The notes beneath the pieces were generated by a model, which saw nothing but the letters and a program-made list of their open reading frames with translations, did no database searches and was not told the DNA's origin. Positions 2,656 to 3,157 of a stretch of DNA of 12,870 nucleotides are shown in pieces. The DNA is taken from the IMG/VR virus record IMGVR_UViG_2541047121_000027. One strand, written 5' to 3'. The position numbers and the translations under genes are program-made. Positions within the stretch are counted from its first letter, which is position 1. Every line of letters begins with the position of its first letter. The DNA is from a virus (taxonomy: Duplodnaviria; Heunggongvirae; Uroviricota; Caudoviricetes).

Positions 2656-2829
2656 TTATCCTTTGGGTTCTATGCCGCGTTGCTGTAATTCTTTGCGGAG
2701 AACGCGTTTAATCCAAGTGGCTAAAGATGTGTCGCCATCGGCCTTAGCAGCTTCTTCTAGCTGCGCTCTGAAGTCTTCCGGTAATCGCATTTGGTATGGA
2801 GGCGAACGTTTTTCTAATGGTGTTGACAT
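2656..2829 (-). CDS. Ribbon-helix-helix (Arc/MetJ-type) DNA-binding protein, 57 aa; candidate island repressor
   Basis: Below the ORF-track length cutoff; translated by hand as MSTPLEKRSPPYQMRLPEDFRAQLEEAAKADGDTSLATWIKRVLRKELQQRGIEPKG. The segment RLPEDFRAQLEEAAKADGDTSLATWIKRVL is a typical RHH beta-alpha-alpha pattern. AAGGG RBS; diverges from the rightward operon; operators overlap its start codon. Confidence 0.7.
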   Translation of the reverse strand: MSTPLEKRSPPYQMRLPEDFRAQLEEAAKADGDTSLATWIKRVLRKELQQRGIEPKG

Positions 2830-2869
2830 GGTAATTACCCTTTATTGCTATACCTACATGGTAATTACC
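2826..2869. promoter_or_regulatory. Two tandem operator-like sites, each a perfect 10-bp palindrome GGTAATTACC inside a 14-bp direct repeat ACATGGTAATTACC
   Basis: Copies at 2826..2839 and 2856..2869 (centres 30 bp apart) in the divergent intergenic region. The first overlaps the RHH start codon. Candidate minus-strand promoter: -35 TTGATT (plus 2892..2897), 16-bp spacer, -10 TACAAT (plus 2870..2875). Confidence 0.55.
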
Positions 2870-2959
2870 ATTGTACTTGCCATTACACAAAAATCAACGC
2901 CCCGCAGTGCTGGGAACACATACGGGGCGTCTAACCAACAACGTAAACTAGGAGCCGTT

Positions 2960-3157
2960 ATGGTTGCCGTAAATCATATACCACACCTTGTACACACACA
3001 AACGGCCTTTGTGTGGCGTTTTCTGGCACTGAGTGCCGGAGAATCTCAAATCATCCACGTAACCGCCTGGACGGAACGCGAAGCGCGTAACCGTTGCCCG
3101 TCCGGTTGTGTTGCTGTATTTGCCGCCCGTATTCGTCAGGAGGTGCGCCATGATTAA
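2960..3157 (+). CDS. Small protein (65 aa), possibly Icd-like host cell division inhibitor
   Basis: AGGAG RBS 5 nt upstream of the ATG. Translation MVAVNHIPHLVHTQTAFVWRFLALSAGESQIIHVTAWTEREARNRCPSGCVAVFAARIRQEVRHD. The Icd-like assignment is from memory of P4-type satellite proteins and is unverified. It is the 3' end of a 314-aa track ORF whose upstream part I consider spurious. Confidence 0.5.
   Translation: MVAVNHIPHLVHTQTAFVWRFLALSAGESQIIHVTAWTEREARNRCPSGCVAVFAARIRQEVRHD

What the first reader, a model, noticed from the sequence alone, without database searches (positions are those of the whole stretch)
2656..2960. RHH repressor diverging from the replication operon across two tandem perfect palindromes
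A 57-aa Arc/MetJ-like protein, missed by the ORF track because of its size, is encoded divergently from the rightward operon (icd-like through rep). The intergenic region has two copies of ACATGGTAATTACC, each containing the perfect palindrome GGTAATTACC, 30 bp apart; one overlaps the repressor start codon. This looks like an autoregulated master-repressor switch that a helper-phage antirepressor could target.
Basis: partly seen in the sequence, partly recalled or inferred. Interest (0 to 1): 0.6.

Follow-up and report, generated by a model that had tools for sequence, protein, structure and literature searches.

The report
Hidden repressor switch in phage satellite
A tiny, unannotated DNA-binding protein with two palindromic binding sites, plus a small antisense RNA, sits in front of the replication genes of an E. 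coli O157 phage satellite, so a satellite family thought to lack a repressor appears to carry a phage-P22-like immunity switch.

Summary
ACATGGTAATTACC occurs exactly twice (2826-2839 and 2856-2869), and each copy holds the perfect palindrome GGTAATTACC. ORF57 (2656-2829, minus strand) is a real gene. It has 93 same-length homologues across Gammaproteobacteria, dN/dS of 0.006-0.18, and a predicted ribbon-helix-helix (RHH) fold.

In 72 related loci the two boxes and the promoter hexamers around them are conserved while the spacer between them drifts. Box sequence changes symmetrically along with the DNA-reading beta-strand of the protein, giving four specificity classes. ORF57 is therefore very probably an autoregulated repressor of the rightward icd-like/replication operon.

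The window is an EcCIEDL933-type capsid-forming PICI. The prototype EcCICFT073 carries an analogous YlcI/YnfO gene at the same place.

The "helper antirepressor target / master switch" part is not supported. Published work shows that AlpA overexpression alone induces both islands.

I also found a conserved, structured leftward RNA of about 80 nt (2966..2886). It is antisense to the icd ribosome-binding site and ends in an intrinsic terminator. The whole layout mirrors the annotated P22 immI region (mnt / Pant-Pmnt / sar).

A 314-codon plus-strand frame running from just after alpA into icd is unexpectedly open, which recalls P4 eta.

Overall this is a new member of a known kind. It matters because PICI papers call a repressor in Gram-negative islands "unclear".

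The parts
1967..2155 (+). alpA, the island's activator. It is convergent with the leftward cassette.
   Evidence: Pfam Phage_AlpA 5.4e-17. Its role as activator is from PMC6092414.
2298..2335 (-). Intrinsic terminator that closes the leftward ORF57-ORF62 operon. It is strong only on the minus strand.
   Evidence: The minus strand folds to -21.7 kcal/mol (z = -3.8) and is followed by UUUUUUU. The plus strand folds to -12.3 kcal/mol (z = -1.6) and has no U-tract.
2425..2613 (-). ORF62, the second gene of the leftward operon. Function unknown.
   Evidence: phrog_21027, 3e-16, function unknown. Homologues follow the RHH or YlcI gene in E. coli islands. None was detected by tblastn beside the RHH gene in 72 loci of other species.
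2656..2829 (-). ORF57, a 57-aa ribbon-helix-helix protein and the proposed repressor.
   Evidence: 93 homologues of 56-58 aa. dN/dS 0.006-0.18 and codon-position differences of 0.22/0.11/0.49. AlphaFold2 pLDDT 77, with helices at residues 18-31 and 36-50. The Foldseek top hits are almost all RHH proteins. PHROG 228 'Arc-like repressor', 1.5e-6.
2823..2828 (+). TTGACA, the proposed -35 element of the rightward promoter P_R. It is formed by codons 1-3 of ORF57.
   Evidence: TGTCAA follows the first base of the start codon, at the same distance from box 1, in 60 of the 67 loci examined, including loci that use TTG or GTG as the start codon. The promoter assignment itself is inferred.
2830..2839 (.). 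Box 1, GGTAATTACC. It lies in the P_R spacer and abuts the ORF57 start codon.
   Evidence: It is GGTAATTACC in 17 of 20 distinct class-A loci. Mean pairwise identity is 0.96, against 0.60 for the spacer.
2846..2851 (+). TGCTAT, a weak -10 candidate for P_R, 17 nt after the -35.
   Evidence: Relatives carry CATAAT, TATGAT or TACTAT at the same place (read). This is a consensus match only.
2860..2869 (.). Box 2, GGTAATTACC. It lies over the predicted start sites of both promoters.
   Evidence: Mean pairwise identity 0.88 in class A, often as GGTAACGACC or GGTAATGACC.
2870..2897 (-). P_L, the promoter of ORF57: TTGATT, 16 nt, TACAAT.
   Evidence: Promoter scan, 9 of 12 matches. A TAnnAT hexamer next to box 2 is kept in relatives.
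2886..2966 (-). Putative cis-antisense RNA of about 80 nt. Stem-loop 1 (2933-2965) has the anti-Shine-Dalgarno sequence CUCCU in its loop. Stem-loop 2 (2896-2931) plus a U-tract forms the terminator.
   Evidence: The minus strand folds to -33.6 kcal/mol (z = -4.2), against -23.6 (z = -2.1) for the plus strand. RNAalifold on 39 loci finds 21 pairs, 13 of them with compensatory changes. 95.6% of cells are paired, 0 of 500 shuffles reach that, and slid controls stay at or below 48%. There is one covariance-model hit per module. No Rfam family matches.
2973..3001 (-). Candidate promoter of the antisense RNA (TTGTGT, 17 nt, TATGAT), inside the first codons of icd-like.
   Evidence: A -10-like TAnnnT hexamer sits at a fixed 42-43 nt from the GGTNARA anchor in 25 of 39 loci, although the overlapping genes differ. 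This is a consensus match only.
2960..3157 (+). icd-like gene, the first gene of the rightward operon. Its ribosome-binding site AGGAG is at 2950-2954.
   Evidence: NCBIfam phage_ICD_like, 5.2e-18. PGAP annotation.
2213..3157 (+). 314-codon open frame that runs from 58 nt after alpA, antisense through ORF62 and ORF57, through the operators, and in frame into icd. It resembles P4 eta.
   Evidence: In simulations that keep both proteins, the frame was open over the 249 codons upstream of icd in 3 of 20,000 runs. EcCICFT073 has a 428-codon equivalent. The frame is not open in all relatives.
3150..5744 (+). The rest of the regulated operon: small ORFs, a DUF4222 gene, and the RepA-family helicase.
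   Evidence: PGAP annotation of identical DNA. PHROG hits.

Best explanation
The window is an EcCIEDL933-type capsid-forming PICI of E. coli O157:H7. Positions 2298-3001 hold an immunity-type control module laid out like phage P22 immI.

Proposed mechanism:
- ORF57 is a ribbon-helix-helix protein that binds as dimers to the two GGTAATTACC palindromes.
- Box 1 sits in the spacer of the rightward promoter P_R, whose -35 element is made by ORF57's own first codons.
- Box 2 covers the predicted start sites of both P_R and the leftward promoter P_L.
- Occupancy of the boxes therefore silences the icd-like/replication operon and, at higher occupancy, ORF57's own promoter. This would keep the integrated island quiet and give each island lineage its own operator specificity.
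- A second layer is a leftward antisense RNA of about 80 nt that covers the ribosome-binding site and start codon of the first rightward gene.
- Helper-dependent induction does not need to remove ORF57. It runs through AlpA, most simply by AlpA-driven rightward transcription from upstream. That transcription would read across the leftward cassette, whose terminator is weak on the plus strand, into the same operon.

What is shown: the gene is real and selected; the fold is RHH-like; the boxes are footprint-conserved and co-vary with the beta-strand; the RNA structure co-varies.

What is inferred: actual DNA binding, promoter activity, repression, expression of the antisense RNA, and the AlpA read-through.
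For: The gene is real:
- 93 homologues, nearly all 56-58 aa, in Enterobacterales, Pasteurellaceae, Aeromonas, Oceanimonas and Gilliamella.
- dN/dS against the window is 0.006-0.18. The O111 island copy has dN 0.008 and dS 1.38.

The fold is RHH-like:
- AlphaFold2 gives an extended N-terminus followed by two helices.
- Nearly all of the 50 listed PDB matches are RHH proteins, including AmrZ, Arc, CopG, ParG and NikR.
- The beta-strand SPPYQMRL aligns to Arc PQFNLRW.

The boxes behave as operators:
- The repeat is far beyond chance.
- In 22 distinct class-A loci, box identity is 0.96 and 0.88 against 0.60 for the spacer, at 29-31 bp spacing. In 13 class-C loci it is 0.96 and 1.00 against 0.47.

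Specificity classes change both half-sites, and usually both boxes, together with the beta-strand:
- SP(Q/P)(Y/F)QMRL goes with GGTAATTACC.
- SPQFPMRL goes with GGTATATACC.
- (D/Q)QYQ(I/L)RL goes with TGTAATTACA.
- NPPFQFRL goes with GTGTAATnACAC.

The boxes follow the regulator, not AlpA:
- Islands with a near-identical AlpA (STEC434 also has an identical icd) but a different regulator carry different repeats (STEC434 and CFT073).

Promoters:
- P_L was found by the scan.
- The TTGACA is conserved at the nucleotide level.

Antisense RNA.

Layout: identical in order to the annotated P22 immI region.

AlpA route: PMC6092414 and 10.1101/2025.02.11.637232. The leftward terminator is weak on the plus strand.
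Against: - There is no direct binding or expression data.
- The Pfam Arc match is below its cut-off (14.3 against 20.4 bits). Foldseek E-values are about 1.
- Only a monomer could be modelled.
- Gene and operators are adjacent, so some of the co-variation is simply co-inheritance.
- The window's own P_R -10 candidate (TGCTAT) is poor.
- AlpA alone induces the island, so the repressor is either overridden or not limiting. Its contribution to maintenance is untested.
- The published alpA-dependent 'ORF3' fusion could not be mapped to a strand here.
Confidence: 0.7

Rival explanations
1. ORF57 is the master repressor of the island, analogous to Stl of the staphylococcal pathogenicity islands (SaPIs). 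Induction happens when a helper-phage antirepressor binds it.
For: It is divergent from the replication operon, as Stl/Rpr is in Gram-positive PICIs (PMC6092414). It has operators over both promoters. The phage factor that switches on alpA is still unknown.
Against: An alpA mutation abolishes induction, and AlpA overexpression without any phage induces EcCICFT073 and EcCIEDL933. EcCICFT073 carries an analogous YlcI/YnfO gene, and EcCIEDL933 is the prototype of this window's island type. The 57-aa protein ends 7 residues after helix 2, which leaves no obvious partner-binding domain.
Confidence: 0.12
2. ORF57 is the antitoxin of a type II toxin-antitoxin pair, with ORF62 as the toxin. The palindromes would then be the usual autoregulatory operator of such a pair.
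For: The gene order is RHH first and a small second gene after it, with an autoregulatory palindrome. Some database names call homologues 'HicB family' or 'VapB'.
Against: No ORF62 homologue was detected by tblastn beside the RHH gene in any of the 72 loci of other species. In many of those loci alpA follows about 150 nt downstream. ORF62 matches no toxin family in Pfam or NCBIfam. ORF57 has no C-terminal extension. The operators are also positioned over a second, outward promoter that feeds the replication operon.
Confidence: 0.04
3. The palindromes are binding sites for AlpA, integrase/excisionase or a host protein, and ORF57 merely lies next to them.
For: AlpA-family proteins bind DNA near promoters (general knowledge). 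The region lies between alpA and the genes it activates.
Against: Islands with 58 of 62 identical AlpA residues (CFT073) or a near-identical AlpA (STEC434) carry quite different repeats, and those repeats follow the adjacent RHH or YlcI variant. Box variants track beta-strand residues. Pectobacterium loci have the boxes and the RHH gene but no detectable alpA.
Confidence: 0.04
4. ORF57 is not a gene. The real gene is the 314-aa plus-strand ORF, which PGAP reads as an Icd-like (pseudo)gene, and the palindromes are coding sequence.
For: The plus-strand frame is open far beyond chance (3 of 20,000 simulations). A 428-aa equivalent exists in CFT073. PGAP calls a plus-strand pseudogene.
Against: Substitutions follow the ORF57 frame: position 2 is the most conserved and dN/dS is well below 1. 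7 of 28 homologues have stops in that antisense frame, and many loci lack a long open frame. The plus-strand product matches no family upstream of the icd part. The two readings are not exclusive: the plus-strand frame may be kept open for read-through translation, as described for P4 eta (PMC10111431).
Confidence: 0.02

Closest known systems
Phage P22 immI region (mnt, Pmnt/Pant with Omnt/Oarc, arc, sar RNA, ant)
   Same: The order of parts matches the annotated record NC_002371.2:
- a terminator;
- a small ORF;
- an RHH repressor transcribed leftward;
- overlapping opposed promoters carrying the operators;
- a rightward operon whose downstream gene's ribosome-binding site is covered by an antisense RNA of about 70 nt, which has its own promoter inside that gene and its own terminator.

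The ORF57 beta-strand aligns to those of Arc and Mnt.
   Different: - The homology is only marginal: hhalign E about 1e-3 and probability 19-25%.
- ORF62 is unrelated to P22 orf59a.
- The RNA is not homologous to sar.
- There is a single RHH gene, with no second Arc-like gene.
- The regulated operon starts with icd-like and replication genes, and this window has no antirepressor.
- The operators are two separated 10-bp palindromes 30 bp apart.
SaPI and Gram-positive PICI master repressor Stl/Rpr
   Same: It is a satellite-encoded repressor transcribed divergently from the excision/replication operon (PMC6092414).
   Different: - It has an RHH fold rather than helix-turn-helix, and only 57 aa.
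- No evidence exists for a helper antirepressor.
- Induction in these islands is AlpA-dependent.
Satellite P4 immunity (PLE leader, CI RNA/seqA, eta/kil, vis)
   Same: It occupies the same place in the element: after the alpA/vis homologue and before the replication genes. An early promoter lies inside a long read-through ORF that begins just after the alpA homologue (PMC10111431).
   Different: P4 uses the CI RNA; C4 and isrK matched P4. Neither matches here, and my covariance model does not match P4. Here a protein repressor cassette lies antisense inside the long frame.
YlcI/YnfO family (NCBIfam NF041551)
   Same: Small proteins with an RHH-like sequence pattern (my reading of the sequences) occupy the identical position, each with its own repeat set, in sister islands including EcCICFT073.
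   Different: ORF57 scores 18.7 bits against a cut-off of 30. Profile-profile probability is 2.4%. It is a positional analogue, not a demonstrable member.
Solved RHH regulators: AmrZ (3qoq), Arc, CopG
   Same: These are the best structural matches (AmrZ: rmsd 1.3 over 38 residues, 37% identity). The beta-strand has the same alternating pattern.
   Different: None of the structural matches is statistically significant (E about 1), and the sequence search of PDB gives AmrZ at E 0.95.
Phage P1 immI (c4 RNA, icd, ant)
   Same: An icd-type first gene is preceded by an RNA-based control of its translation start (P1 biology is from general knowledge; the Icd-like match is).
   Different: There is no C4 match. 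The RNA here is a true cis-antisense transcript from the opposite strand.

Membership tests
Ribbon-helix-helix (Arc/MetJ/CopG) transcription factors | A strand-helix-helix domain of about 45 residues | tested here: met
   The AlphaFold2 model has an extended N-terminus and helices at 18-31 and 36-50, with pLDDT 77. Nearly all listed Foldseek PDB matches are RHH proteins, although E is about 1. PHROG 228 'Arc-like repressor', 1.5e-6.
Ribbon-helix-helix (Arc/MetJ/CopG) transcription factors | Pfam Arc (PF03869) at or above its gathering score | tested here: not met
   14.3 bits against a cut-off of 20.4, E = 0.038.
Ribbon-helix-helix (Arc/MetJ/CopG) transcription factors | An obligate dimer that pairs the two N-terminal strands | not testable with these tools
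   Only a monomer could be modelled. Palindromic sites are consistent with a symmetric dimer.
Ribbon-helix-helix (Arc/MetJ/CopG) transcription factors | Binds repeated or palindromic operators through the beta-sheet | tested here: inconclusive
   The evidence is comparative only. The boxes are conserved relative to the spacer, and they co-vary symmetrically with beta-strand residues. No binding assay was possible.
YlcI/YnfO family (NF041551) | NCBIfam score at or above 30 bits | tested here: not met
   18.7 bits, E = 1.4e-3. hhalign probability 2.4%.
PICI master repressor (Stl/Rpr type) | Transcribed divergently from the excision/replication operon | tested here: met
   ORF57 is on the minus strand, and icd through repA are on the plus strand.
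PICI master repressor (Stl/Rpr type) | Derepression by a helper-phage protein is the induction step | not testable with these tools
   The literature argues against it: AlpA overexpression alone induces EcCICFT073 and EcCIEDL933.
P22 immI-type module | An RHH repressor gene facing an operon across overlapping opposed promoters that carry its operators | tested here: met
   P_L came from the scan. The P_R hexamers are conserved across 60 loci. Promoter activity itself was not tested.
P22 immI-type module | A small antisense RNA over the ribosome-binding site of a gene in the rightward operon, with its own promoter and terminator | tested here: met
   The structure co-varies on the leftward strand. 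A U-tract follows the second stem-loop. A -10-like element sits at a fixed distance in 25 of 39 loci. Expression was not tested.
P22 immI-type module | Sequence homology to Mnt/Arc and to sar, and an antirepressor gene downstream | tested here: not met
   hhalign probability is 19-25%. There is no sar match in Rfam or with model R2. This window has no ant-type gene.
Type II toxin-antitoxin antitoxin | A conserved adjacent toxin gene and a toxin-binding C-terminal tail | tested here: not met
   No ORF62 homologue was detected by tblastn beside the RHH gene in the loci of other species. ORF62 matches no toxin family. ORF57 ends 7 residues after helix 2.
P4-type RNA immunity (C4 / isrK / c4-a1b1) | A match to the Rfam models | tested here: not met
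   No match at E up to 10 in 1900-3400. The same search finds all three models in P4.

The most novel reading that the evidence does not exclude
Gram-negative PICIs, including both experimental prototypes, do have a repressor-based immunity system that has been overlooked because the genes are tiny and often unannotated. It would consist of three things:
- an RHH (or YlcI/YnfO) repressor whose exchangeable operator specificities define satellite immunity groups;
- a cis-antisense RNA over the first replication-operon gene;
- placement of both antisense inside an eta-like frame that is kept open.

AlpA-driven transcription and translation from upstream would then plough through the cassette, silencing it by interference while expressing the replication operon. 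In this reading AlpA is the override of a repressor lock, not a stand-alone activator.
Probability: 0.3. Interest if true: 0.75.

Novelty: new member of a known kind. Interest (0 to 1): 0.6.

Why it matters
[quoted passage not shown] This analysis assigns that variable region a concrete and testable function: a repressor with lineage-specific operators, plus an antisense RNA. It shows that the two workhorse islands, EcCICFT073 and EcCIEDL933, carry such a module.

It would matter for three reasons:
- for understanding how these satellites stay silent, establish themselves after transfer, and exclude relatives;
- for engineering PICI-based delivery vehicles, because uncontrolled replication is toxic;
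- for annotation, because PGAP currently places a pseudogene on the wrong strand in O157:H7 genomes.

Tried and rejected
1. C4, isrK and other known RNA families. Rfam at gathering scores and at E up to 10 found nothing in the control region, although the same search finds C4, isrK and c4-a1b1 in P4.

2. I first modelled the conserved hairpin as a rightward leader RNA (model R1). I rejected that strand. A-C mismatches (46) outnumber G-U pairs (14) on the plus strand. The minus strand folds 10 kcal/mol better and is followed by a U-tract.

3. Rosetta-stone idea that ORF62 equals the C-terminal half of the 101-aa YlcI/YnfO proteins. A mixed database cluster suggested it. The alignment shows 11-12% identity, so there is no homology.

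4. Homology of ORF62 to P22 orf59a: none found.

5. Homology of the RNA to P22 sar. Only weak hits to the terminator part were found (sar E 0.36, oop E 0.04).

6. Sequence search of PDB with the family profile. It returned spurious designed helical repeats, with AmrZ at only E 0.95.

7. Membership of YlcI/YnfO by profile-profile comparison: probability 2.4%.

8. Universal conservation of the open plus-strand frame. It does not hold: the frame is open through the cassette in roughly a quarter to a third of distinct loci.

9. AlpA as a universal neighbour. It was detectable within 4 kb in only 29 of 72 loci.

10. Literature searches for an RHH or YlcI regulator in PICIs or satellites returned nothing relevant.
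Full report
**Where the window comes from**

The region 2200-3400 is 100% identical to many E. coli O157:H7 chromosomes. The island lies between roxA and phoQ. Its gene content, in order, is:
- int;
- alpA (Pfam Phage_AlpA, 5e-17);
- icd-like;
- several small ORFs;
- a DUF4222 gene;
- a RepA-family helicase;
- ssb;
- a major capsid protein gene;
- a terminase-like gene.

This is an EcCIEDL933-type capsid-forming phage-inducible chromosomal island (cf-PICI), as described in bioRxiv 10.1101/2022.09.08.507074. In this window an IS3-family element truncates int. 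Fifty-six complete genomes share that junction.

**Check of the observation**

- ACATGGTAATTACC occurs exactly at 2826-2839 and 2856-2869. With up to two mismatches, 4 matches were found against 0.07 expected, and 0 of 200 shuffles reached that.
- The perfect palindromes GGTAATTACC lie at 2830-2839 and 2860-2869.
- ORF57 (2656-2829, minus strand) starts at the CAT of the first repeat.

**Is ORF57 a gene?**

PGAP does not call it in identical genomes. It places an 'Icd-like, partial' pseudogene on the plus strand (2213-2806 in window coordinates). However, three lines of evidence support ORF57.
- A search of 5.8 billion proteins found 93 homologues, nearly all 56-58 aa. They occur in Escherichia, Salmonella, Yersinia, Xenorhabdus, Photorhabdus, Serratia, Pantoea, Pasteurellaceae, Aeromonas, Oceanimonas and Gilliamella.
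- Among 28 distinct coding sequences of 57 codons, differences per site at codon positions 1, 2 and 3 are 0.22, 0.11 and 0.49.
- dN/dS against the window is 0.006-0.18. The E. coli O111 copy has dN 0.008 at dS 1.38.

**Fold**

- With a 64-sequence alignment, AlphaFold2 gives pLDDT 77, an extended N-terminus, and helices at 18-31 and 36-50.
- Foldseek against PDB returns almost only ribbon-helix-helix proteins: AmrZ, CopA, ORF56, Arc, ParG, CopG, NikR, PutA and RHH antitoxins. As expected for 57 residues, E-values are about 1.
- PHROG 228 'Arc-like repressor' matches at 1.5e-6.
- Pfam Arc is below its threshold.
- Profile comparison aligns SPPYQMRL to Arc PQFNLRW and to Mnt PHFNFRM, at E about 1e-3.

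I treat the RHH fold as well supported. Membership of any curated family is not shown.

**Operators**

A genome scan returned 72 loci in other species. When the upstream regions are put in register, the same order of elements recurs:
- TTGACA, which is made by codons 1-3 (ATG TCA A..) of the repressor gene. It persists where the start codon is TTG or GTG;
- box 1;
- about 17 nt;
- a -10-like hexamer;
- box 2;
- a TAnnAT hexamer on the other strand;
- about 17 nt;
- a TTG-type -35.

Conservation of the boxes against the spacer:

| Class | Distinct loci | Box 1 identity | Box 2 identity | Spacer identity | Spacing |
|---|---|---|---|---|---|
| A | 22 | 0.96 | 0.88 | 0.60 | 29-31 bp |
| C | 13 | 0.96 | 1.00 | 0.47 | 31-35 bp |

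The boxes change with the protein's beta-strand:

| Beta-strand | Box |
|---|---|
| SP(Q/P)(Y/F)QMRL | GGTAATTACC |
| SPQFPMRL | GGTATATACC |
| (D/Q)QYQ(I/L)RL | TGTAATTACA |
| NPPFQFRL | GTGTAATnACAC |

- The changes hit both half-sites, and usually both boxes, together. That is what selection for a symmetric dimer site predicts.
- A central residue change (Q to P) goes with central base changes. Outer residue changes go with outer base changes. This structural reading is my inference.
- Because gene and site are adjacent, part of the correlation is co-inheritance. The footprint and the symmetry are the stronger arguments.

In E. coli sister islands the same position holds YlcI/YnfO-type proteins, each with its own repeat set: GTGGCTGACA x3, GTGTGTTTCA x3, GTGGGCCACAC x2 and TGTAAG-type. 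Islands whose AlpA is nearly identical to the window's (STEC434, which also has an identical Icd protein, and CFT073, 58 of 62 residues) have quite different repeats. The repeats therefore follow the small regulator and not AlpA.

**Promoter geometry (inferred from consensus and conservation)**

- P_L is TTGATT, 16 nt, TACAAT, at 2897..2870.
- P_R is TTGACA at 2823-2828, with a poor -10 candidate (TGCTAT) in this window. Relatives have better ones (CATAAT, TATGAT, TACTAT).
- Both predicted start sites fall in box 2, and box 1 fills the P_R spacer.
- One repressor could therefore shut both promoters. Box 1 is the better-conserved site, so P_R would probably be shut first.

**The leftward operon**

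- It continues with ORF62 (2425-2613), which belongs to phrog_21027 of unknown function.
- It ends at a terminator that is strong only on the minus strand: -21.7 against -12.3 kcal/mol, with a U7 tail.
- ORF62-like genes follow the regulator in E. coli islands. None was detected by tblastn beside the RHH gene in the other species, where alpA is often about 150 nt downstream of the RHH gene. This argues against a toxin-antitoxin pair.

**A second regulator inside the finding's coordinates**

A GC-rich hairpin at 2896-2931 is conserved in every module. Covariance model R1 gave 72 hits across the loci, one beside each module. I first read it as a rightward leader, but the evidence points to the leftward strand:
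- A-C mismatches (46) exceed G-U pairs (14) on the plus strand.
- The minus-strand RNA from 2966 to 2884 folds to -33.6 kcal/mol (z = -4.2), against -23.6 (z = -2.1) for the plus strand.
- The hairpin is followed by UUGAUUUUUGUG only on the minus strand.

RNAalifold was run on a plain MAFFT alignment of 39 distinct loci. It predicts two stem-loops with 21 pairs, 13 of them with compensatory changes. In the pair count, 95.6% of cells are paired, 0 of 500 shuffles reach that, and slid controls stay at or below 48%.

Stem-loop 1 exposes CUCCU, the complement of the icd Shine-Dalgarno sequence AGGAG (2950-2954). A -10-like hexamer (TATGAT at 2978..2973 here; TATAAT, TACAAT, TATCAT or TACTAT elsewhere) sits 42-43 nt upstream of the GGTNARA anchor in 25 of 39 loci. 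This holds even though the overlapping genes differ: Icd-like, primase, or proteins of about 115 aa.

I therefore propose a cis-antisense RNA of about 80 nt over the translation start of the first rightward gene. It matches no Rfam family.

**Comparison with P22 and P4**

The annotated P22 immI region has the same order of parts:
- a terminator;
- orf59a;
- mnt (RHH);
- the overlapping promoters Pmnt and Pant, with their operators;
- arc;
- the sar antisense RNA, whose promoter lies inside ant and which has its own terminator;
- ant.

This is a resemblance of design and not demonstrable homology.

P4 uses the CI RNA at the equivalent place. C4 and isrK match P4 but do not match here.

**The long plus-strand frame**

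- The frame 2213-3157 (314 codons) starts 58 nt after alpA and runs into icd in frame.
- In simulations that keep the ORF57 and ORF62 proteins and shuffle the rest, it is open over the 249 upstream codons in only 3 of 20,000 runs.
- EcCICFT073 has a 428-codon equivalent through a different regulator cassette, and I read a Bro-N-like remnant in it.
- It is not open in all relatives.
- Tommasini et al. (PMC10111431) describe the P4 precedent. eta is a long ORF that begins after the alpA homologue vis and contains the early promoter and the immunity RNA. Its translation prevents termination of late, upstream-initiated transcripts.
- This probably explains the PGAP pseudogene call. It also suggests how AlpA could bypass the repressor.

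**What the literature says**

- PMC6092414 states that a global repressor in Gram-negative PICIs is unclear. It shows that AlpA activates its own promoter, that alpA is required, and that its overexpression alone induces EcCICFT073.
- EcCICFT073 carries a YlcI/YnfO gene, an ORF62-like gene, repeats and the RNA motif at the same place.
- Searches for an RHH or YlcI regulator in satellites found nothing relevant.
- The ORF57 family is almost absent from 50,697 phage records. There are 4 hits, and the best is a 15-kb 'phage' record from Pasteurella multocida that I suspect is a PICI.

**Verdict**

The RHH-plus-operator reading is well supported by comparative evidence, but it is untested biochemically. 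The claim that a helper antirepressor targets it has no support and is in tension with the AlpA data.

At the molecular level this is a classical design: a new member of the immI-like and RHH autorepressor kind. Its interest lies in filling an acknowledged gap in Gram-negative PICI regulation, and in the unexpected extra layers of the antisense RNA and the open antisense frame.

Noticed in passing
window 2886-2966 (-), promoter candidate 2973-3001 (-): A conserved two-stem-loop leftward RNA of about 80 nt. It is antisense to the ribosome-binding site and start codon of icd-like and ends in an intrinsic terminator whose U-tract overlaps the -35 of P_L. There is strong covariation in 39 loci and no Rfam family matches.
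   Followed up: yes
window 2213-3157 (+); L079 7767-9053 (+): A 314-codon frame (428 codons in EcCICFT073) is open from just after alpA, antisense through ORF62 and ORF57 and through the operators, in frame into icd. It was open by chance in 3 of 20,000 simulations. It resembles P4 eta, but it is not open in all relatives.
   Followed up: partly
window 2213-2806 (+), as annotated in NZ_CP033605.1 (L001 3014-3607): PGAP annotates an 'Icd-like, partial' pseudogene on the strand opposite ORF57 and ORF62 in O157:H7 genomes, and omits both small genes. In O111, STEC434, D5 and CFT073 it annotates the small leftward genes instead.
   Followed up: partly
window 1-747 and 748-1602: An IS3-family element (ALIL pseudoknot at 1-105, orfA at 60-386) is inserted in the integrase gene. 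It leaves a 284-codon 3' part, against 409 aa in strain TR01. 56 complete genomes share the junction, so this copy of the island is probably immobile.
   Followed up: partly
window 2425-2613 (-): ORF62 carries the conserved motif ESERFAPCAFALEQFLKEY (phrog_21027). It follows whichever RHH or YlcI variant is present in E. coli islands. No homologue was detected beside the RHH gene in the 72 loci of other species. Function unknown.
   Followed up: partly
L003 1423-3064 and L004 1423-2940: Some E. coli islands carry two complete modules in tandem (ORF62-like, regulator, repeats, RNA motif, icd fragment), each with a different operator class.
   Followed up: no
window 3246-3255 (+): A third near-palindrome, TGTAATTACC (one mismatch to the box), lies inside the second rightward ORF. 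It may be chance: 3 sites were found against 0.28 expected, and 2 of 200 shuffles reached that.
   Followed up: no
window 2162-2180 (+): A stable hairpin (GGCGGC-ACACA-GCCGCC, -16.3 kcal/mol, z = -3.6) lies right after the alpA stop codon and has no U-tract. It is also present in CFT073. It is followed by a TCTAACC-like motif and then the ATG of the long frame.
   Followed up: no
first rightward genes of L009, L011-L017, L056, L061; window 2960-3010: Unrelated first genes (Icd-like, and primase in Xenorhabdus) share an N-terminal peptide of the type MA..(H/Q)TQT(R)PK(F/Y). In the window the HTQT codons at 2990-3001 are the complement of the -35 candidate of the antisense-RNA promoter. I suspect the peptide reflects that nucleotide constraint, but I checked this only in the window.
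   Followed up: partly
protein cluster look-up, cluster 3: The 90%-identity cluster of ORF62 also lists 101-aa YlcI/YnfO proteins that are only 11-12% identical to it. This looks like a clustering artefact, so it should not be read as a domain fusion.
   Followed up: yes
L047 4294-5574 (-), 1260-1786 (-): In Pectobacterium the same RHH, box and RNA module sits next to a P4-type integrase with no detectable alpA. The rightward genes there are unknown and are followed by ccdAB.
   Followed up: partly
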